Part shown: piece after piece, positions 3,221 to 36,742 of the stretch
Layout: each line of letters opens with the position of its first letter
Position numbering within the stretch: the first letter of the stretch is position 1
Source: an uncultured Gammaproteobacteria bacterium
Lineage (GTDB): Bacteria > Patescibacteriota > Patescibacteriia > XYB2-FULL-38-15
DNA: 64,000 nucleotides
NCBI GenBank assembly: GCA_965231095.1
Contig: OZ246416.1
Location: 121,228 to 185,227, forward strand
Reading direction: 5' to 3'
Translations under genes and position numbers: made by a program
Notes under the pieces: generated by a model
Seen by the model: only the letters and a program-made list of their open reading frames with translations
Told to the model about the DNA's origin: nothing
The model's database searches: none

Positions 3221-3742
3221 ATGGATTATTATTTTTTTCAACTCATTAACGATTTAGCCGGCAGGTGGCGGGCGCTGGATTGGCTTGGCATCTTTTGCGC
3301 CGAATATCTTATTTTTATTATGGCTTTCGCGATTTTTGCCTGGACTATTTTTAATAAAAATAATCGGCGGGCGGATACGGTTATAATCTTAGAAATTATC
3401 TTAGCGGCATTTTTAAGTTATTGTTTAAAAATTATAATCAACTTGGTTTATTTTCGTCCGCGGCCGTTTTCCGCCCACGACGTAGCTCTTCTTGTCGGAA
3501 AAATAGCTGACGGCTCTTTTCCTTCGGCGCATACGTTTCTGTCTTTTGTTATGGCTTTTGTGATTTTTATGTATAATAAAAAATTGGGTGCGGTCTTATT
3601 GGTTTTCTCATCGTTGGTTGGGATTTCAAGAGTTTATGTTGGGGTTCATTACCCAATGGATGTTTTGGGAGGAGTAGCGTTGGCGTGGTCGGCGGTTTAC
3701 GCGGTAAATAAAATTAATTGGAAAAAATTCTTTAAAATATGA
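3221..3742 (+). CDS. PAP2-family phosphatase (undecaprenyl-diphosphatase-like membrane protein)
   Basis: PAP2 motifs KxxxxxxRP, PSAH and SRVYVGVHYPMDV; multiple TM segments. Confidence 0.75.
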   Translation: MDYYFFQLINDLAGRWRALDWLGIFCAEYLIFIMAFAIFAWTIFNKNNRRADTVIILEIILAAFLSYCLKIIINLVYFRPRPFSAHDVALLVGKIADGSFPSAHTFLSFVMAFVIFMYNKKLGAVLLVFSSLVGISRVYVGVHYPMDVLGGVALAWSAVYAVNKINWKKFFKI

Positions 3743-4800
3743 AAATTGTAATTCGGGCCGGCGGATCGGGAACTAGACTTTGGCCTGTTAGTCGCAAAAA
3801 TAATCCAAAACAATTTCAGGCGCTCTCGGGAAAAAATTCTTTGATTCGCGATACGGTAAATCGCGTAAAACCATTGTTTAAAAAGAGTGGTGATCTTTTT
3901 ATTTCCGTGAATCGGGGTATGGCAAATAGATTGAAAAAAGAAGTTATAAAATTGCCAAATAAAAATATTATTTTAGAACCGGCGGGAAGAAATACCGGGC
4001 CGGCGATTTGTCTTGAAAGTTGTATTTTAGCTCGCCGTTTTGGAGAAGATGTGATTGTCGCGAGTTTGCCTTCTGATGATTATATTTCCAATGCCGCCTC
4101 TTTTTGCAAGATGCTTTTAGCGGCGGAAAAATTTTTGAAAAAAAATCCGGAATATATTGTAACCCCTGGCGCAAAACCGACCTTTCCCGACACGGGCTAC
4201 AGCTATATAAAAGCGGGCGCACGGATGGAAGCTCGTCGTGGCGGAAATATTTTTAAAGTGGGGGGGTGGATTGAAAAACCGGCTCTGGCGCAGTGTAAAA
4301 AATTAATCAAGTCGGGAAGATATTTTGCCCACATGGGAATGTATCTTTGGAAATTAAAAACCGTGTTGGATTTATTCAGAAAATTTCAGCCGAAAATTTA
4401 TGAAGTTTGCAAAAAGTCTGCTGCCGGAGGAAATCCGAAAGATTATAGCAAATTAGAAAAAATTTCCATTGAGTCTGCCGTGACAAATCACGCGCCAAAA
4501 ATTGCCGTTGCCGTTTCAGAAAAATTTATTTGGAGTGATTTGGGAAAATGGCAGATTGTCGCGAAGATGATGCCCGGCGACAAAAAGGGAAATGTGGTAA
4601 AAGGAAACGCGGCGTTCCTTGACACAAAAAATTGTTTGGTTTACGGTCCGAAGAATAAGTTGGTCGCGACGTTTGGTATAAATGATTTAGTGATTATTTT
4701 GGCCGAAGACGCGCTTCTTGTTTGTCCGAAAGATAGGGCGGGAGAGATAAAAAAAATCGTAGACGAATTAGAAAAGAAGGGATTAAAAAAATATTTGTAA
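3739..4800 (+). CDS. Sugar-phosphate nucleotidyltransferase (mannose-1-phosphate guanylyltransferase-like)
   Basis: N-terminal GGSGTRLWPVSR nucleotide-binding motif typical of NDP-sugar pyrophosphorylases; 4-nt overlap with the upstream gene. Confidence 0.7.
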   Translation: MKIVIRAGGSGTRLWPVSRKNNPKQFQALSGKNSLIRDTVNRVKPLFKKSGDLFISVNRGMANRLKKEVIKLPNKNIILEPAGRNTGPAICLESCILARRFGEDVIVASLPSDDYISNAASFCKMLLAAEKFLKKNPEYIVTPGAKPTFPDTGYSYIKAGARMEARRGGNIFKVGGWIEKPALAQCKKLIKSGRYFAHMGMYLWKLKTVLDLFRKFQPKIYEVCKKSAAGGNPKDYSKLEKISIESAVTNHAPKIAVAVSEKFIWSDLGKWQIVAKMMPGDKKGNVVKGNAAFLDTKNCLVYGPKNKLVATFGINDLVIILAEDALLVCPKDRAGEIKKIVDELEKKGLKKYL

Positions 4801-4813
4801 TTTTTAATATTTT

Positions 4814-5845
4814 ATGAAAAAATTTATTTTTTTGGCGGCGTTGATTATTATAGTGGTTGCGGGTTGGTATATTTTTGTTCCGCCTTCGGAGGATCCGGCG
4901 GAAAAAAGTTTTGTGATAGAGAAAGGTGAGGGAGTGAATGAAATCAGCCAGCATCTTTTGGAGCAAAATTTTATAAAAAATAAATTTGTTTTTGAAACTT
5001 ACGTTTGGTTAAAAAAAGTTCAGGGTGATTTTAGGGCCGGCGAGCATATTCTAGGGCAGAATATGAGGATTTGGGAAATTGTTGAAGTTTTAACTTCTCT
5101 TGGTGAAACAAATGAGCGGGATATAAAGGTTCTTGAAGGATGGAATAACCGTGAAATCGCAGATTATTTAGATGAGGGAGGCGTGGTGGGCAAAGACGCG
5201 TTTTTTGGTGTTTTGGAAAATTACAATTCCGGCAACGATGAAAATTATGAATTTTTGGATGATCGGCCAACCGGAGCGACATTTGAAGGATATTTATTTC
5301 CCGACACATATAGAATTTATAAAGAATTTCCCGCGGAATTTTTGGATGAAGGAAAAGACAAAGATTATGTAATGGCCGAGCATATTATTAAAAAAATGCT
5401 TTTAAATTTTGATCAAAAATTAACGGCCGATTTACGCGCGGAAATTTTTCGGCAGAAAAAAACTATTTTTGAAATCGTGACCATGGCGTCAATCATTGAA
5501 AAAGAAGCGCGCGGAGAAGACTTGGCAAAAGTCGCCGATATTTTTTGGCGAAGAATTGACGAAGGAATCGCCCTTCAATCTGACGCGACGGTAAATTACG
5601 CGACGGGAAAATATGAAACTCAGCCCAGCTTTGATGATCTAAAAATTAATTCTCCATACAACACTTATAAATATCGCAGCCTGCCCGAGGGGCCAATCGG
5701 GAATCCCGGACTCGCGGCGATTCGCGCGGCGATTTATCCGGAGGCAAATGATTATTGGTATTTCCTGCACGCCAAAGATGGGCAGACGATTTACAGCCGA
5801 GATTTCGAAGAACATAAAGCAAACAAGGCAAAGTATTTACAATAG
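4814..5845 (+). CDS. mltG: Endolytic murein transglycosylase MltG (YceG family)
   Basis: N-terminal TM anchor and YceG-like architecture (343 aa); conserved E…PDTY region; followed by a rho-independent terminator. Confidence 0.7.
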   Translation: MKKFIFLAALIIIVVAGWYIFVPPSEDPAEKSFVIEKGEGVNEISQHLLEQNFIKNKFVFETYVWLKKVQGDFRAGEHILGQNMRIWEIVEVLTSLGETNERDIKVLEGWNNREIADYLDEGGVVGKDAFFGVLENYNSGNDENYEFLDDRPTGATFEGYLFPDTYRIYKEFPAEFLDEGKDKDYVMAEHIIKKMLLNFDQKLTADLRAEIFRQKKTIFEIVTMASIIEKEARGEDLAKVADIFWRRIDEGIALQSDATVNYATGKYETQPSFDDLKINSPYNTYKYRSLPEGPIGNPGLAAIRAAIYPEANDYWYFLHAKDGQTIYSRDFEEHKANKAKYLQ

Positions 5846-19218: not shown

Positions 19219-19377
19219 TTTTCACCCATGTTGTAGAATAGATAAATTACCAAAGACAGCAGGCGGTCGAGAAATTTGGCCTTAATTTCCTGCCGAGGTA
19301 AAACCGTGATTTTTTCGGTTTTTCTATCGTGTTCTGTGGTAATTCCACAGTTTTTTATTTATATAATTTAAAACAAT
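19219..19377 (+). promoter_or_regulatory. rplJ promoter plus L10-leader-type attenuator
   Basis: TTGACA-17-TAGAAT promoter (about 19220-19248), then a roughly 120-nt leader ending in the hairpin ctgtgg-taatt-ccacag followed by TTTTTT immediately upstream of rplJ. This is the expected position of the L10(L12)4 autoregulatory leader. Confidence 0.55.
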
Positions 19378-33259: not shown

Positions 33260-34345
33260 ATGTACTTTATTTCATTCTCCACTACATTTATCATCGCGGC
33301 AATTTTGACTTGGCTCGTTCGCCGGGTTGCTTTAAAATATAAAATTGTTGACGAACCGAACGAATCAAGAAAAATTCATAAATCGCCGATGCCGCTTCTG
33401 GGCGGGTTGGCAATTTTTTTATCTTTTTTTGCGGTCTTAGCTTATTACATTTTTTTCACCGACAAAATTTTGGGGAACGAGTTTGTTGTAAAAAATTTGA
33501 TCGGCGTGTTTTTGGGCGGCGCGCTCTTGATGATTGGCGGATTTTTGGATGATAAATATAAATTGGCGCCGAAATATCAAATCATCTGGCCAGTGCTCGC
33601 CACAGCAGTCGTAATTGTAAGCGGCGTCGGGATTGATCAAATTACAAATCCTTTCGGCGGACTTTTGCATCTTGATTCCTGGCAGAAAATTCTTTTTTGG
33701 TGGGACGGGGTTCCGTATAAAATTACAATTCTTGCCGATCTTTTTACTTTTGTCTGGTTGATGGGCATGATGTACACAACAAAATTTTTGGACGGCTTGG
33801 ACGGTTTGGTTTCCGGAGTTTCAACCATCGGCGCGGTGATAATTTTCTTTGTGAGTTTAATGGCTGAAGTCGCCCAGCCGGGGACAGCAATGCTCGCGAT
33901 AATTTTTGCCGGAGCCTGCGCGGGATTTTTGGTTTGGAATTTTAATCCGGCCAAGATTTTTTTGGGGGAGGGCGGAAGTTTATTCACCGGGTTTATTTTG
34001 GGCGCCCTGTCCATTATCGCCGGCGGTAAAATCGCGACTACGCTTTTGATTATGGGCTTGCCGATTTTGGATGCCGCGATTGTAATAATCAAACGACTTA
34101 TCTCGCGGCGGAGCCTTGTTTCGGCTGACCAAAAACATTTACATTTTCGTTTGCTTGATGCCGGGATGAGCCAGCGTCAAGCCGTGCTTTCCTTGTATTT
34201 TGTGACCCTGGCTTTTGGCACTTCAACTTTATTTTTAAAGTCGGGCGGTAAGGTTTTCGCCTTGGTGGTTTTGGGAGTTTTGGGCGTGGCCTGGACAATT
34301 GTTTTAATAAAAGGCCGCCGGAATGTGCAGAAAATAGGGGAGTAA
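33260..34345 (+). CDS. Glycosyltransferase family 4 (WecA/MraY superfamily) undecaprenyl-phosphate sugar-1-phosphate transferase
   Basis: About 10 TM; motif HKSPMPLLGGLAIF (WecA/TagO-like rather than the MraY KxGTPTMGG); DDxxD-like LDDKYKL. Confidence 0.75.
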   Translation: MYFISFSTTFIIAAILTWLVRRVALKYKIVDEPNESRKIHKSPMPLLGGLAIFLSFFAVLAYYIFFTDKILGNEFVVKNLIGVFLGGALLMIGGFLDDKYKLAPKYQIIWPVLATAVVIVSGVGIDQITNPFGGLLHLDSWQKILFWWDGVPYKITILADLFTFVWLMGMMYTTKFLDGLDGLVSGVSTIGAVIIFFVSLMAEVAQPGTAMLAIIFAGACAGFLVWNFNPAKIFLGEGGSLFTGFILGALSIIAGGKIATTLLIMGLPILDAAIVIIKRLISRRSLVSADQKHLHFRLLDAGMSQRQAVLSLYFVTLAFGTSTLFLKSGGKVFALVVLGVLGVAWTIVLIKGRRNVQKIGE

Positions 34346-34351
34346 AAATTT

Positions 34352-34772
34352 CCCCTCCTTTCTAAGGAGGGGATTAAGGGGTGGTTATGGACAAAATATT
34401 TAATCGTAAATCACAAAAGTTAACGCGTCAAAATCTTCGCAACCGTCCCACGTGTTCTGAAAAAATAATTTGGCGTTATTTGTGTGGAAGTAATTTGGGT
34501 GGTTATAAATTTCGCCGCCAACAAGGAATAGGGCCGTATGTTGTTGATTTCTATTGCCCGGAAGCTAATTTAGCGTTGGAATTTGACGGGGATAGTCATT
34601 ATCAAACCGGAGCCGCTAAACGCGACAAGGTGAGACAAAAGTTTATCGAAAAAATGGGTATAAGGGTTGTGCGTTTTACGGACAATGATGTACGGGATAG
34701 TTTAGATGAAGTGCTGGCAACGGTTTTACAAAAATTACACACCACCCCTAACCCCTCCTCAGAGAGGAGGGG
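34352..34772 (+). mobile_element. DUF559 endonuclease-like gene flanked by about 34-bp palindrome-containing inverted repeats
   Basis: Left cccctcctttctaaggagggg-attaaggggtgg (about 34352-34385); right ccacccctaa-cccctcctcagagaggagggg (about 34742-34772). These are reverse complements of each other, and each contains a perfect CCCCTCC…GGAGGGG hairpin. Confidence 0.5.
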
Positions 34773-34785
34773 GAAAATTGGTTAA
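34387..34785 (+). CDS. DUF559 (Vsr-like endonuclease fold) protein
   Basis: …GYKFRRQQGIGPYVVDFYCPEANLALEFDGDSHY…RDKVRQKFIEKMGIRVVRF typical of DUF559; the C-terminal residues are encoded by the right IR. Confidence 0.75.
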   Translation: MDKIFNRKSQKLTRQNLRNRPTCSEKIIWRYLCGSNLGGYKFRRQQGIGPYVVDFYCPEANLALEFDGDSHYQTGAAKRDKVRQKFIEKMGIRVVRFTDNDVRDSLDEVLATVLQKLHTTPNPSSERRGKIG

Positions 34786-34818
34786 CCTTAGCGAAAATAT
34801 TAAAATAAGATATAATAA

Positions 34819-34862
34819 ATCTGTCAAAAGCTCTTGACAGATTGTTGTTTTTATGGTATACT
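34819..34862 (+). promoter_or_regulatory. Consensus sigma70 promoter overlapped by a perfect palindromic operator
   Basis: ATCTGTCAA-aagctc-TTGACAGAT (9-bp perfect IR, about 34819-34842); its right half-site is the -35 TTGACA, followed by a 17-nt spacer and -10 TATACT (about 34857-34862). Confidence 0.6.
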
Positions 34863-34868
34863 AATCTG

Positions 34869-35000
34869 TTGACAATGAAATAGGTCGGTTTGAGAGAGAC
34901 CCGCCATTCATCTGCTTTTTGGCGAGATGAAGACGGGAAAACCACCCTAAATTATTTGTACAAATAATTTAATTTCGGGCGGATTCTCTCCGCCCGTTTT
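34869..35000 (+). promoter_or_regulatory. Structured leader RNA ending in an intrinsic terminator (attenuator / candidate riboswitch)
   Basis: A roughly 130-nt transcript from the strong promoter contains the hairpin TTCATCT…AGATGAA, a 7-codon uORF (MKTGKPP), and the terminator gggcgga-ttctc-tccgccc + TTTTT (about 34975-34998). Three further perfect hairpins follow (agccagaac…gttctggct; ccgcac-g-gtgcgg; ctccgca-gga-gtgcggag) before the first SD. Confidence 0.45.
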
Positions 35001-35178
35001 TGTTTGTACTTTGACAATTTAGTTAGCCAGAACTAAGCAAGAAATTGACTGGTTCTGGCTAGGACAGAAGCGCAAGTTTCTGCCCGAAAAATTTCCCAAA
35101 CCGCACGGTGCGGGGAGGGGACAAGAGTATTCTAGATTTGCTCCGCAGGAGTGCGGAGCGAGGGAAGGGAATGAGGCA

Positions 35179-35454
35179 ATGAGCGTGTTCATTTTCGTCG
35201 CTTGGTTCGTATTGGCTCTCGTGTTCGGGATTCGAGAGATGATCATCATGAAGCGTAGCGGCGTTCGCAAGGAACTCTTCCTGCTCATCGCAGTTCTCGT
35301 GGTCATAGCGTTCGCGGGCGTGACGTCTCGTGCGATCGTCGAACTCGGACTCGGGATCGAGACATTGCCAGCGTTGGCGATGTCAGTGCTCGCCTGTATC
35401 GCCGTGGCGTACTTCTTACTGGAAGTTGCCTGGAACAAGATACGCCGTCCGTAG
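35179..35454 (+). CDS. Small 3-TM membrane protein (high-GC operon gene 1)
   Basis: 91 aa; SD tgagg 5 nt upstream; GC about 55%. Confidence 0.6.
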   Translation: MSVFIFVAWFVLALVFGIREMIIMKRSGVRKELFLLIAVLVVIAFAGVTSRAIVELGLGIETLPALAMSVLACIAVAYFLLEVAWNKIRRP

Positions 35455-35609
35455 TTCCTTCCAAATGTCCTGGCTTCCAAAAGTATGCCGGAAATCGTCC
35501 GAGTCCTTCGGACGGTGGCTCGTAGATTTTCCTAAATCACCGCAAGGTGACAACAAGAAAAAATACGAGCTTCGCGGAACTTGCAATGAGTTCCGCCTTC
35601 TTTCGAGAG

Positions 35610-35679
35610 CATCTGTTATTCTTCGAGCGAACGAAGTGAGTCGAGAAGTTCTCGACTTCGCTAACGCTCCGCTCGAACA
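35610..35679 (+). repeat. Dispersed palindromic repeat, copy R2
   Basis: atctgttattcttcgagcgaacgaagtgagTCGAGAAGTTCTCGActtcgctaacgctccgctcgaacag; related copies at about 27600-27640 and, inverted, at about 43925-43995. Confidence 0.6.
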
Positions 35680-35762
35680 GTAAACAGGTGAACTCGAAGA
35701 GAGGAAAGTTCATTTCGTAAATTTCTCCGCCTTTGGCGGGGACAAAAGAAGGGAAGGAAGAG

Positions 35763-35960
35763 ATGAAGATGGATCGTCAGACGAAGATCGCGATCGTGAT
35801 CAACGTGGCGTTCATGGTGTTCGTGTTCGCGTTCGTGGCGCTGACCACGGTGGGTTGTACCAACACGTTCATCGACCTGACTCCGCCGTGCGAGGCGGAT
35901 GCAGGATGCGATGACGTGGTCGACGCCTGCGACGGCGACGACGGCGAGGATTGCTCCTAG
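35763..35960 (+). CDS. Small membrane-anchored protein with acidic Cys-rich tail (operon gene 2)
   Basis: SD ggaaggaag; one TM/signal-like helix, then TPPCEADAGCDDVVDACDGDDGEDCS (4 Cys in 22 aa, net acidic). Start could be the ATG at 35769. Confidence 0.5.
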   Translation: MKMDRQTKIAIVINVAFMVFVFAFVALTTVGCTNTFIDLTPPCEADAGCDDVVDACDGDDGEDCS

Positions 35961-35989
35961 TTCATCCGACCAAGAGGAGGCAAGAAAAT

Positions 35990-36184
35990 TTGTCCACGGC
36001 CAGGGTGATTCTGGGAATTTTGGTGGTAGGCGCGGACGTCTACATCATCATGAAAGGAGTCAAAAAGTTCGAGCATCGCCGGCTTATGGTGGTCGGCGAG
36101 ATGGAGGGAGCCGGAGAAGGCCACGTGTTCTGGCTCGGCTTGTTCTTCGCTTTCGTTGGATCTTTGCTGGTTTTCGGCGAATAG
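35990..36184 (+). CDS. Small 2-TM membrane protein (operon gene 3)
   Basis: SD aagaggagg, then TTG 9 nt downstream (alternative GTG at 36005); hydrophobic helices ILGILVVGADVYII and FWLGLFFAFVGSLLVF. Confidence 0.45.
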   Translation: MSTARVILGILVVGADVYIIMKGVKKFEHRRLMVVGEMEGAGEGHVFWLGLFFAFVGSLLVFGE

Positions 36185-36201
36185 AAAGGAGACAGAAGAC
36201 T

Positions 36202-36381
36202 GTGAAGACGGCATGGGAGATCGCCAGTGCGGCGATTCTCGTTTCGATGGTGCTCGTGGTCGGAGCCGCCGACCAGATTGCGCCGCAGACGACGGTCCGG
36301 TTCATGCAGCGGTACGAACCGCAGCTGGACCAGTTCGTCAAGTTCCTGCTCGGCGAAGAGGAGGAGGTAGGCGTGAGATAG
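36202..36381 (+). CDS. Small signal-anchored protein (operon gene 4)
   Basis: SD aaaggagac, then GTG 7 nt downstream; AILVSMVLVVGAA helix; the overlapping longer ORFs in other frames are R-rich junk. Confidence 0.4.
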   Translation: MKTAWEIASAAILVSMVLVVGAADQIAPQTTVRFMQRYEPQLDQFVKFLLGEEEEVGVR

Positions 36382-36742
36382 ATAGCCGCTATCGCTTGAC
36401 CGCAAGGTCAATGTTCGCCGGCCGCGATGGAACGCGTCACCTGCGCAGTGGTGAGCCAAGAGGAAGCAGAGCCTCCGGGTTTCGGCCTAGACAAACCGAA
36501 CGGGGAGCGAAAGGTGAAAACCGATCGTTCCCCACCTTTTTTGAGAACATCGCAAAAGCGGTGGCCTCAAAAGATGTTTGAATCCTGAAGCGAGTGAATA
36601 ATCTTCGTTCAGCAAACAAATCTCTCTCTATTTCGCTGGACATCCGAGGACTATTCACTCACTCCAGGGTTTTTATTTTAACTTGCAGTTATTGGATAAA
36701 TGCGTTATTATAAATAAAAGAAAATACATTAATTCTACAAAT

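What the first reader, a model, noticed from the sequence alone, without database searches (positions are those of the whole stretch)
34352..34772. DUF559 endonuclease-like gene framed by mirrored CCCCTCC…GGAGGGG hairpin repeats
The 5' flank (cccctcctttctaaggagggg-attaaggggtgg) and the 3' end (ccacccctaa-cccctcctcagagaggagggg) are reverse complements of each other. The right repeat encodes the protein's last residues. The structure resembles a miniature selfish element or homing-type cassette carrying a Vsr-fold nuclease. It lies directly upstream of the acquired small-protein operon.
Basis: seen in the sequence. Interest (0 to 1): 0.55.

Follow-up and report, generated by a model that had tools for sequence, protein, structure and literature searches.

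The report
Nuclease gene framed by triplex-forming repeats
A small DUF559 nuclease gene sits between two mirrored copies of a known but unexplained bacterial repeat (a hairpin plus a G-rich tail that can fold into a DNA triple helix); the same arrangement surrounds DUF559 genes across many bacterial phyla, including E. coli ycjD, which points to this nuclease as the missing protein partner of these repeats.

Summary
CCCCTCC-N7-GGAGGGG occurs exactly twice in the 64-kb window (0.01 expected), as inverted copies bracketing a 132-aa DUF559 ORF.

Each copy is hairpin + short linker + GGGGTGG. The tail is the mirror image of the purine arm, which makes these units "intrastrand triplex motifs" (TM/PIT elements; Holder 2015). 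That repeat class is known and dispersed, but has no known protein partner.

- **Association with DUF559.** In 85 DUF559 loci chosen by protein alone, from many phyla, TM units flank the gene about 100 times more often than in far flanks, with tails pointing inward. E. coli ycjD and N. gonorrhoeae NGO0050 (PDB 3HRL) show the same arrangement.
- **Presence/absence.** At two independent sites, close relatives lack both the gene and the TMs. One relative keeps both TMs around an ORF stub.
- **E. coli copy number.** ycjD+ genomes carry a median of 17 TMECO copies, against 3 in ycjD- genomes. This is confounded by phylogroup.
- **Fold.** The protein is Vsr-like and closest to a homing-endonuclease catalytic domain.

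Most likely this is a compact selfish nuclease-repeat cassette, analogous to REP/RAYT. The anatomy is shown; the mechanism is inferred. The TM-DUF559 link appears undescribed in the literature I could search.

The parts
34346..34386 (+). Left triplex-motif (TM) unit, G-rich strand on +: (AAATTT) Y-arm CCCCTCC 34352-58, loop 34359-65, R-arm GGAGGGG 34366-72, linker ATTAA, mirror tail GGGGTGG 34378-84, then TT. It lies between the GT4 stop (34343-45) and the DUF559 ATG, and contains Shine-Dalgarno-like AAGGAGG and AAGGGG.
34387..34785 (+). DUF559 (Vsr-like PD-(D/E)XK) nuclease ORF, 132 aa. An alternative GTG start at 34381 lies inside the TM tail. The core fold spans residues 1-118. Residues 119-132 are the translated right repeat and are predicted to be disordered.
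   Evidence: Pfam PF04480 at 97.5 bits; PDB profile hits 3HRL at 2e-31 and 3R3P at 1e-3; AlphaFold pLDDT 86 overall, with the tail below 50; Foldseek
34740..34779 (-). Right TM unit, G-rich strand on -. On the + strand it reads tail' CCACCCC 34742-48, linker TAA, CCCCTCC 34752-58, loop 34759-65, GGAGGGG 34766-72, (GGAAAATT). It is inverted relative to the left unit, so both tails point inward.
34346..34782 (+). The whole cassette (about 435 bp). It is absent from the homologous site in L221 and L218 and reduced to TM-stub-TM in L215.

Best explanation
The two repeats are inverted copies of an intrastrand triplex motif (TM, earlier called PIT element). Each is a pyrimidine arm, loop, purine arm, 3-5-nt linker, and a G/T tail that mirrors the purine arm. 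On a single strand, the hairpin plus the folded-back tail can therefore form a purine-motif triple helix.

Together the repeats bracket a Vsr-fold DUF559 nuclease gene in a cassette of about 435 bp. I propose that this cassette is a compact selfish nuclease-repeat partnership.

- **Shown:** the anatomy; its conservation around DUF559 genes across phyla; gain or loss of the whole block at two sites; and the existence of ORF-less derivatives.
- **Inferred:** DUF559 is the cognate nuclease of TM repeats and nicks or cuts at or beside them, as duplex or as folded DNA. Host recombination or repair between TM copies then copies, deletes or rearranges the cassette and scatters solo or paired TMs. This would work like RAYT with REP/REPIN repeats, or like a free-standing homing endonuclease whose homology arms are a dispersed repeat.

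In this particular genome the cassette looks old and mostly vertically inherited.
For: **1. The unit is a TM.**
- The tail is the mirror of the purine arm, with A replaced by A or T, in at least 10 sequence variants. Examples are GGAGGGG/GGGGTGG, GGGGAGG/GGAGGGG, GGGGGAG/GAGGGGG, GGAGAGGG/GGGTGAGG, GGAGAAGG/GGATGAGG and GGGGGAC/CAGGGGG.
- Mirror tails outnumber direct-copy tails 189 to 39.
- In some lineages the linker is replaced by an extra mini-hairpin, which keeps the tail next to the arm.
- This matches the published TM definition. The E. coli version (TMECO) forms a triplex in vitro (PMC4666352).

**2. TMs flank DUF559 genes specifically.**
- In 85 DUF559 loci picked by protein only, from many phyla, a + unit lies within 200 nt upstream in 48.
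- A - unit lies at the 3' end in 46; any unit is present in 65.
- Far flanks hold 0.045 units per kb, which predicts about 0.005 per flank.
- Orientation is biased to tails-inward: 48 against 20 upstream, 46 against 23 downstream.

**3. The constraint is on DNA, not protein.** Homologue C-termini read the repeat in all three frames (TTPNPS / PPLTPP / HHP-stop) or stop before it. The tail is predicted disordered.

**4. Presence/absence polymorphism.**
- At the window's site, L221 and L218 are empty with no TM, L215 is TM-stub-TM, and L224, L001, L002 and L134 are occupied.
- At a second site, L013 carries the block while L298-L301 are empty with no TM.

**5. Reference organisms.**
- E. coli ycjD ends in a TM(-) that is intact in strain KE47 and 12 nt shorter in K-12. 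TMECO #9 lies about 170 nt downstream.
- NGO0050 (PDB 3HRL) is flanked by repeats that contain TMs.
- In 60 evenly sampled E. coli genomes, ycjD+ strains hold 10-27 TMECO copies (median 17) and ycjD- strains 1-15 (median 3), p = 1e-9.

**6. The enzyme.** It has a Vsr-like fold with conserved D54/E65/D67/H71/D80. Its closest solved relatives are 3HRL and the catalytic domain of homing endonuclease I-Bth0305I.
Against: - No activity data exist for any DUF559 protein on TM DNA.
- A lone PD-(D/E)XK nuclease of about 120 aa cannot perform strand transfer, so any mobility must rely on host repair.
- No target-site duplication could be defined.
- The cassette is syntenic in four relatives at 82-92% protein identity. 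The window holds no other TM in 64 kb, so there is no sign of recent spread in this genome.
- Most TMs are far from any DUF559: 2 of 120 viral contigs. ycjD-negative E. coli still carry up to 15 TMECOs.
- The E. coli copy-number contrast largely follows phylogroups, so it rests on few independent events.
- Left and right TMs of one gene are sometimes different variants, as in L137.
- Holder et al. did not detect the triplex in vivo by DMS footprinting.
- The subfamily is rare on plasmids (28 of 72,556) and absent from phage records at E 1e-10.
Confidence: 0.6

Rival explanations
1. Cis-regulatory framing of a toxic nuclease gene. The 5' unit (hairpin containing AAGGAGG, tail ending 2 nt before the ATG) would control translation initiation. 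The 3' unit would stabilise or terminate the mRNA, and the 5' GGGGUGG and 3' CCACCCC could pair across the mRNA. Under this view, dispersed TMs elsewhere are an unrelated phenomenon.
For: - The upstream tail ends a median of 14 nt before the start codon, and within 10 nt in 16 of 42 cases.
- The hairpin sequesters a perfect Shine-Dalgarno-like sequence.
- There is no promoter between GT4 and DUF559, so the unit would lie in a polycistronic mRNA.
Against: - It does not explain why tail and arm are mirror images, which RNA pairing does not require.
- It does not explain why the same units are dispersed beside unrelated genes.
- It does not explain why TMs vanish together with the gene at empty sites, or why ORF-less TM pairs persist (L215).
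- PIT/TM elements showed no promoter or terminator activity in earlier tests, as cited in PMC4666352.
- Neither unit is followed by a T-run on the sense strand.
Confidence: 0.15
2. The TMs are targets, not termini. A DUF559 gene cassette homes into the spacer of pre-existing inward-facing TM doublets, much as some IS elements insert into REP sequences. The flanking repeats would then be host repeats that pre-date the gene.
For: - Inward- and outward-facing TM doublets without any ORF exist in L019, L061, L120, L016 and L106.
- In L002/L224 the cassette lies between two outer half-hairpins, as if inserted into a hairpin loop.
Against: - Empty sites at both polymorphic loci carry no TM at all.
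- The spacer of the L215 doublet resembles the 3' end of the ORF (local score 29 against a maximum of 28 in 500 shuffles), which suggests internal deletion rather than a virgin target.
Confidence: 0.12
3. Host maintenance nuclease. DUF559 would be a repair enzyme that removes or processes hairpin/triplex/G4 structures formed by TMs at replication forks. TMs would accumulate around its gene for reasons unrelated to mobility.
For: - The fold is that of a Vsr-family repair nuclease.
- TM loci are rearrangement-prone (PMC4666352).
- The gene is vertically inherited in this clade.
Against: - It gives no reason for the precise inverted, tails-inward framing of the gene.
- It gives no reason for the joint gain or loss of gene plus TMs.
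- It would predict fewer, not more, TMs in ycjD+ E. coli if the enzyme removed them.
Confidence: 0.1
4. Generic hairpin or terminator motif whose position next to DUF559 here is coincidental.
For: The motif is widespread beside unrelated genes in contigs with GC from 0.34 to 0.72.
Against: - Enrichment at DUF559 gene ends is about 100-fold across 85 loci.
- The only two copies in 64 kb are the two that flank the gene.
- There is no T-run, and the tail is conserved.
Confidence: 0.03

Closest known systems
Intrastrand triplex motifs (TM / TMECO; earlier 'PIT elements': Hoyne et al. 2000, recalled from memory; Holder et al. 2015, PMC4666352)
   Same: The block order is the same: pyrimidine arm, loop, purine arm, short loop, mirror G/T block (a class II purine-motif triplex). 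Both are G/C-rich, about 32-37 nt long, dispersed in many bacteria, and often found as inverted pairs. TMECO #9 of that paper lies next to ycjD.
   Different: The window's units have 7-nt triplex blocks (CCCCTCC/GGAGGGG/GGGGTGG) rather than the 9-nt CCCTCNCCC type. The published work found no associated gene or mobility function and never mentions DUF559. Here the units frame a nuclease gene, and one of them lies inside its coding sequence.
REP/REPIN repeats and their RAYT transposases (Bertels & Rainey 2011, PMC3116915; Nunvar 2010, from memory)
   Same: A usually single-copy, largely vertically inherited nuclease-type gene is flanked by inverted copies of a short structured repeat. That repeat is also dispersed through the genome as singlets and inverted doublets.
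   Different: RAYTs are HUH/Y1 single-strand transposases related to IS200/IS605. DUF559 is a Vsr-like PD-(D/E)XK hydrolase with no covalent-intermediate chemistry. REPs are plain imperfect palindromes with a GTAG head, not hairpin-plus-mirror-tail units.
EDxHD homing endonuclease I-Bth0305I (PDB 3R3P; PMC3239194)
   Same: It shares the Vsr-like catalytic domain (profile E 1e-3; Foldseek TM 0.79) with equivalent acidic and His residues, and its gene is selfish.
   Different: I-Bth0305I has an N-terminal NUMOD/HTH DNA-binding region, lives in a phage group I intron, and cuts a pseudopalindromic duplex site. The window protein is the bare domain, is chromosomal, and sits between repeats.
E. coli YcjD and N. 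gonorrhoeae NGO0050 (PDB 3HRL), uncharacterised DUF559 proteins
   Same: They belong to the same family (3HRL profile E 2e-31). Both genes are TM-associated.
   Different: They share 35-45% identity with the window protein. E. coli lacks the upstream unit, and Neisseria has direct rather than inverted flanking repeats.
Vsr very-short-patch repair endonuclease
   Same: The same fold superfamily. Some data sources name these genes 'very-short-patch-repair endonuclease'.
   Different: The structural match is only weak (Foldseek E 0.16). There is no adjacent Dcm-type methyltransferase, and the intercalating Trp pair and Zn site were not examined. This is not a Vsr orthologue.
MITEs / small IS elements with terminal inverted repeats
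   Same: The cassette has roughly 34-39-bp terminal inverted repeats, an ORF that fills the element, an ORF-less derivative (L215), and presence/absence polymorphism.
   Different: It has no DDE, serine or tyrosine transposase and no definable target-site duplication.

Membership tests
DUF559 (PF04480), Vsr-like PD-(D/E)XK nucleases | Pfam model match above the gathering score | tested here: met
   97.5 bits against a cutoff of 20.6, covering model positions 3-108 of 109
DUF559 (PF04480), Vsr-like PD-(D/E)XK nucleases | Vsr-like alpha/beta fold with conserved acidic and His active-site residues | tested here: met
   AlphaFold model pLDDT 86. Foldseek hits 3HRL at 1e-7 and 3R3P at 4e-4. D54, E65, D67 and H71 are invariant and D80 is at least 90% conserved in 40 homologues. 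The mapping to Vsr D51/H64/H69/D97 was made by eye from PMC3239194.
DUF559 (PF04480), Vsr-like PD-(D/E)XK nucleases | Nuclease activity | not testable with these tools
   No biochemical data for this family was found in the searched literature
Intrastrand triplex motif (TM, class II; Holder 2015) | Three consecutive blocks Y-R-R' of at least 6 nt, with the third block antiparallel-compatible with the second (G.GC, A.AT or T.AT) | tested here: met
   CCCCTCC / GGAGGGG / GGGGTGG gives 7 of 7 triads (6 G.GC + 1 T.AT) in both units
Intrastrand triplex motif (TM, class II; Holder 2015) | Short loops (1-6 nt in the ITxF definition) | tested here: met
   The hairpin extends to 9-10 bp with a 3-nt loop. 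The second loop is 5 nt (left unit) or 3 nt (right unit).
Intrastrand triplex motif (TM, class II; Holder 2015) | Mirror relation covaries across variants, i.e. it is not a chance feature of one sequence | tested here: met
   At least 10 arm/tail variants keep the mirror rule; mirror 189 against direct 39
Intrastrand triplex motif (TM, class II; Holder 2015) | Located in intergenic DNA | tested here: not met
   The left unit is intergenic. The right unit lies inside the DUF559 ORF (34742-34772, against the stop at 34783-85). This departs from the E. coli description but is usual for DUF559 genes.
Intrastrand triplex motif (TM, class II; Holder 2015) | Actual triplex formation | not testable with these tools
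   Shown in vitro only for TMECO by CD and NMR, and not detected in vivo (PMC4666352)
REP/RAYT system | HUH/Y1 (IS200/IS605-type) transposase | tested here: not met
   The protein is DUF559/PD-(D/E)XK and has no Y1_Tnp hit
REP/RAYT system | Gene flanked by inverted copies of a repeat that is also dispersed in genomes | tested here: met
Homing endonuclease gene (EDxHD family) | Vsr-like catalytic domain | tested here: met
Homing endonuclease gene (EDxHD family) | Residence in an intron or intein, or free-standing in phage, with an N-terminal NUMOD/HTH DNA-binding region | tested here: not met
   A 132-aa single-domain protein in a chromosomal intergenic site, with no phage homologues at 1e-10
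Homing endonuclease gene (EDxHD family) | Occupied and empty alleles at the same site | tested here: met
IS / MITE with terminal inverted repeats | Terminal inverted repeats | tested here: met
   34346-34384 against 34742-34779
IS / MITE with terminal inverted repeats | Target-site duplication | tested here: inconclusive
   The flanks AAATTT/AAAATT are part of the inverted repeat. Comparison with the empty L221 site gives no clear duplication.
IS / MITE with terminal inverted repeats | Recognised transposase class | tested here: not met
Intrinsic (rho-independent) terminator | GC-rich hairpin followed by a T-run on the transcribed strand | tested here: not met
   The left unit is followed by ATTAAGGGG and the right by GAAAATTGG. 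Only the antisense reading of the left hairpin is flagged.

The most novel reading that the evidence does not exclude
DUF559 proteins, including E. coli YcjD, are the cognate structure- or sequence-specific nucleases of intrastrand-triplex (TM/PIT) repeats throughout bacteria. TM-DUF559-TM cassettes would be the autonomous form of a mobile or recombinogenic element family built on a Vsr-fold hydrolase and triplex-forming DNA, and solo or paired TMs would be its non-autonomous progeny. This would explain both the origin of TMs and the genomic instability reported at TM sites.
Probability: 0.4. Interest if true: 0.85.

Novelty: new variant of a known kind. Interest (0 to 1): 0.76.

Why it matters
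- **An open question about the repeats.** TM/PIT repeats have been catalogued since 2000 and were shown in 2015 to be abundant, conserved and linked to genome rearrangement. No protein, mobility function or common neighbouring gene was found for them.
- **An open question about the protein.** DUF559 is one of the most widespread uncharacterised nuclease families and includes an E. coli K-12 y-gene and a solved structure.
- **What the link offers.** Connecting the two gives each a candidate function.
- **Why it is testable.** It turns an open question into simple experiments in E. coli: YcjD on TMECO DNA, and a ycjD deletion against TM-linked instability.
- **If confirmed.** It would add a second, mechanistically different example of the repeat-plus-dedicated-nuclease lifestyle known from REP/RAYT. 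It would possibly also be the first enzyme dedicated to a natural DNA triplex or hairpin motif.

Tried and rejected
- **Rfam.** No family matches the units or the cassette. The only gathering-level hit in the window is the L10 leader at 19232-19366.
- **attC (integron) sites.** Considered because of CCCTAAC/GTTAGGG. Rejected because the linker varies (TAA, CAA, TTG, CTG and others) and the R''/R' cores are not conserved.
- **G-quadruplex.** GC-rich variants do have four G-tracts. However, the window's variant has only GG/GGGG/GGGG/GG, and the covariation at A/T positions fits triplex rules rather than G4. It is not excluded as an alternative fold.
- **A repeat specific to DUF559.** Rejected: 118 of 120 motif-bearing viral contigs have no DUF559.
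- **A peptide function for the C-terminal tail.** Rejected: all three reading frames are used, some ORFs stop early, and pLDDT is low.
- **Carriage on plasmids or phages as the vehicle.** Little support.
- **MAFFT placement of the L215 stub.** This was uninformative. A local alignment gives only borderline support for internal deletion.
- **Literature.** Searches for any paper linking DUF559/YcjD with triplex, TM, hairpin or repeats found none. Subscription-only papers are not covered.

Full report
**Observation.** The sequence is as described.
- Immediately after the stop of a family-4 glycosyltransferase gene (33260-34345) lies CCCCTCC-TTTCTAA-GGAGGGG-ATTAA-GGGGTGG (34352-34384).
- Two bases later comes the ATG (34387) of a 132-aa ORF ending at 34785.
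- Inside the ORF's 3' end lies CCACCCC-TAA-CCCCTCC-TCAGAGA-GGAGGGG (34742-34772), the reverse complement of the left unit apart from linker length and two loop bases.
- The inverted match runs outward to AAATTT/AAAATT.
- The hairpin pattern occurs only at these two places in 64 kb, against 0.01 expected. A relaxed structural scan also finds only these two.
- Each hairpin is stable as single-stranded DNA, about -10 kcal/mol with z about -2.9.
- The ORF is DUF559 (Pfam 97.5 bits).

**What the repeat is.** Each unit is more than a hairpin, because a short linker joins the purine arm to a G-rich tail.
- Across many loci the tail is the mirror image of the purine arm, with A kept or replaced by T. 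Pairs seen include GGAGGGG/GGGGTGG, GGGGAGG/GGAGGGG, GGGGGAG/GAGGGGG, GGAGAGGG/GGGTGAGG, GGAGAAGG/GGATGAGG, GGGGGAC/CAGGGGG and GGGAGAAGGGG/GGGGATGAGGG.
- With equal search freedom, mirror tails outnumber direct-copy tails 189 to 39.
- In Hymenobacter and L155 the linker is replaced by an extra small hairpin, which keeps the tail beside the arm.
- A tail that follows the purine arm and mirrors it is the geometry of an intramolecular purine-motif triple helix (G.GC, A.AT or T.AT, third strand antiparallel to the purine strand).
- This class is already described as 'intrastrand triplex motifs' (TM; TMECO in E. coli; earlier PIT elements). The E. coli consensus is CCCTCNCCC-N3-6-GGGNGAGGG-N3-GGGNGAGGG.
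- MG1655 has 23 copies. Triplex formation was shown in vitro by CD and NMR but not detected in vivo, and the copies are often in inverted pairs and linked to locus instability.
- The authors explicitly found no associated mobility gene and no common flanking gene (PMC4666352). That paper does not mention DUF559 or any endonuclease.

- Only the roughly 32-nt unit was conserved.
- Some contigs held 5-6 co-oriented copies or inverted doublets.
- Only 2 of the 120 also encode a DUF559.

**But DUF559 genes almost always carry it.** I retrieved 80 DUF559 loci from GTDB species genomes by protein patterns only. They come from Patescibacteria, Bacteroidota, Cyanobacteria, Nitrospirota, Planctomycetota, Proteobacteria, Acidobacteriota, Elusimicrobiota, Desulfobacterota, Spirochaetota and others. 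Five more loci came from encoding contigs.
- A strict detector finds a + unit within 200 nt upstream in 48 of 85 loci.
- It finds a - unit at the 3' end in 46, both in 31, and any unit in 65.
- DNA more than 500 nt from the gene holds 47 units in 1.05 Mb. That predicts about 0.005 per flank, so the enrichment is about 100-fold. Several misses are visibly real units that the detector is too strict for, for example the Prevotella units with a central mismatch and those with long linkers.
- Orientation is biased to tails-inward: 48 against 20 upstream and 46 against 23 downstream.
- The upstream tail ends a median of 14 nt before the start codon.
- The ORF may stop before the downstream unit (14 cases), in its tail or linker (9), in the hairpin (7) or beyond it (14), and enters it in all three frames.
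- This explains the TTPNPSS.., PPLTPP.. and ..HHP-stop C-termini of homologues.
- The tail is predicted disordered. The conserved object is therefore the DNA, not a peptide.

**Reference organisms.**
- In E. coli K-12, ycjD (DUF559) ends ...SPSP* over CCCTCTCCC-TGAAA-GAGCGAGGG. A partial duplicate of its 3' end follows, then TMECO #9 of Holder's Table 1 about 170 nt downstream.
- In strain KE47 the ycjD 3' end carries an intact inverted TM (CCCTCACCCC-AA-CCCTCTCCC-TGAAA-GGGCGAGGG). K-12 has lost 12 nt of it, and the 12-nt difference is also reported in PMC12817139.
- With 23 TMECOs in 4.6 Mb, a copy within 200 nt of a given gene is expected with probability of about 0.002 (my arithmetic).
- N. 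gonorrhoeae NGO0050, the DUF559 protein solved as 3HRL, is flanked by roughly 110-nt direct repeats. Each contains a TM: CCTCTCTCCC-TGT-GGGAGAGAG-CTA-GAGAGAGGG.

**Presence/absence at the window's site.** Eighty loci were retrieved through the neighbouring GT4 protein. All share the downstream promoter region, and they show several states.

| Locus | GT4 identity | State of the site |
|---|---|---|
| L221 | 90% | Empty: gene stop, 12 nt, then the shared downstream sequence; no TM |
| L218 | 74% | Empty; no TM |
| L224, L001, L002, L134 | 87% for L224 (DUF559 protein 82-92% identical in all four) | TM-DUF559-TM |
| L215 | 87% | Both TMs around a roughly 35-nt stub that starts with ATG |
| L216, L219, L217 | 87%, 90%, 76% | A different insert: a small GIY-YIG nuclease ORF (Pfam 2e-18) with its own flanking repeats, or only those repeats |

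The 3' part of the L215 stub resembles the ORF's last codons (score 29 against a maximum of 28 in 500 shuffles).

**Presence/absence at a second site.** In Uhrbacteria L013 the order is FtsX, three perfect tandem TMs, DUF559, TM plus further TM-like repeats, then tRNA-Gln. Relatives with FtsX 71-77% identical (L298-L301) have FtsX directly followed by tRNA-Gln, with no DUF559 and no TM.

Gene and repeats therefore come and go together. This argues against insertion into pre-existing repeats at these sites.

**E. coli population data.**
- ycjD is present in 3375-3377 of 5426 complete genomes. The rest carry the eefRABCD operon between sapF and fabI.
- A composite query (ycjD core plus TMECO consensus) gave both variables for 60 evenly sampled genomes. 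The 37 ycjD+ genomes hold 10-27 TMECO places (median 17). The 23 ycjD- genomes hold 1-15 (median 3). Mann-Whitney p = 1.2e-9.
- The contrast largely follows phylogroups (B2 has 1-4, O157 has 12). It therefore counts as a few evolutionary events, not 60.

**The protein.**
- The profile matches 3HRL (2e-31) and the catalytic domain of the homing endonuclease I-Bth0305I (3R3P, 1e-3).
- The AlphaFold model (pLDDT 86) matches the same two structures by Foldseek. More weakly it matches the PvuRts1I/AbaSI nuclease domains and Vsr.
- D54, E65, D67 and H71 are invariant, and D80 is nearly so. By my reading these correspond to the Vsr and I-Bth0305I active-site residues described in PMC3239194.
- Unlike I-Bth0305I, there is no separate DNA-binding domain.
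- The subfamily is rare on plasmids (28 records) and absent from phage records at 1e-10.

**Interpretation.**
- **Shown:** the repeats are TMs. TMs frame DUF559 genes, tails inward, across bacteria. The framed block is a unit of gain and loss, and ORF-less derivatives exist.
- **Inferred:** DUF559 acts on TMs by nicking or cutting at or near them. Host recombination between TM copies then spreads, deletes or rearranges the cassette and leaves solo or paired TMs. This resembles REP/RAYT in logic and free-standing homing endonucleases in chemistry.
- The direct duplications beside several cassettes fit repair-mediated copying rather than transposase chemistry. They are seen in E. coli, Neisseria and L013.
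- In the window's own lineage the cassette is syntenic in four relatives and no other TM occurs in 64 kb. It is therefore probably an old, quiescent copy.

**Weaknesses.**
- There is no biochemical evidence for any DUF559 protein.
- No target-site duplication could be defined.
- TMs persist without DUF559.
- Left and right units can be different variants (L137).
- The in vivo triplex is unproven.
- The E. coli correlation is phylogenetically confounded.
- The literature search cannot see subscription-only papers.

Noticed in passing
L219 1008-1277; L217 about 1378-1650; L216 4845-4935; remnant in L001 5925-5945 (all homologous to the site at window about 34346): In other relatives the same intergenic hotspot holds a small GIY-YIG nuclease ORF flanked by its own repeats (ttccctgagcggagcg..gtcgaaggg / ggccttcgacaagctcaggccataa), or only those repeats. 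L299 has another GIY-YIG gene near the second site. Two unrelated mini nuclease-plus-repeat cassettes therefore use one hotspot. The window has no copy of this second repeat.
   Followed up: partly
window 34818-35000: A perfect palindrome AATCTGTCAAAAG/CTCTTGACAGATT overlaps the -35 of a strong sigma70-like promoter (TTGACA-17-TATACT, 34834-34862). About 110 nt of conserved, structured leader- or sRNA-like sequence follows, ending in a terminator at 34976-34996. The stretch is conserved in L215, L216, L221 and L224. Rfam gives only sub-threshold hits (L20_leader, E 0.087). It contains ACCACCCTAA, which resembles the TM tail'.
   Followed up: partly
window 35100-36600: A GC-rich stretch (0.56-0.59 against about 0.42 around it) with small overlapping ORFs. 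The gene content between the promoter and the DUF192 gene differs in L001 (MopE-like, 362 aa) and L002.
   Followed up: no
L013 4880-4997: Three perfect tandem 42-nt TM copies lie directly before the DUF559 start codon. ARAGORN miscalls a tRNA-Gly inside them (4896-4978). The cassette is also bracketed by direct copies of a second, composite TM variant (4766-4875 and 5395-5475).
   Followed up: partly
L167, L205 (Hymenobacter), L155: The 3-5-nt TM linker is replaced by an extra small hairpin (for example ACATTTTCACGAAGTGAAAATT). This keeps the tail adjacent to the purine arm and is a structural covariation in favour of a folded three-part unit.
   Followed up: partly
L214 (E. coli K-12, 1,351,040-1,351,860) and L295, L297: The ycjD + TM block and the 7.5-kb eefRABCD efflux operon are alternative occupants of the sapF-fabI interval. 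K-12 has a partial duplication of the ycjD 3' end between the gene and TMECO #9. TMECO copy number per genome is strongly bimodal across E. coli.
   Followed up: partly
E. coli TMECO 'A mm' copies; Prevotella L004/L193/L209: The hairpin carries the same central G.A mismatch (CCCCGCCCC against GGGGAGGGG; CCCTCGCCCC against GGGGAGAGGG) in distant phyla. This suggests the mismatch is copied or selected.
   Followed up: no
L001 4409-4786; L301 2578-2955: A 23S_rRNA_IVP / bAvd-like four-helix-bundle gene is variably present next to the same conserved genes. It lies between ClpB and GT4 in L001 and is absent in the window. This is another small accessory insert in these Uhrbacteria genomes.
   Followed up: no
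L298 3920-3992 against L013 5548-5620 and L301 3990-4062: The tRNA-Gln(ttg) next to the second polymorphic site is inverted in L298/L299 relative to L013 and L301. This is a local rearrangement beside a TM/DUF559 hotspot.
   Followed up: no
window 19232-19366: Ribosomal protein L10 leader (Rfam RF00557, 59.4 bits), the only gathering-level RNA family hit in the window.
   Followed up: no
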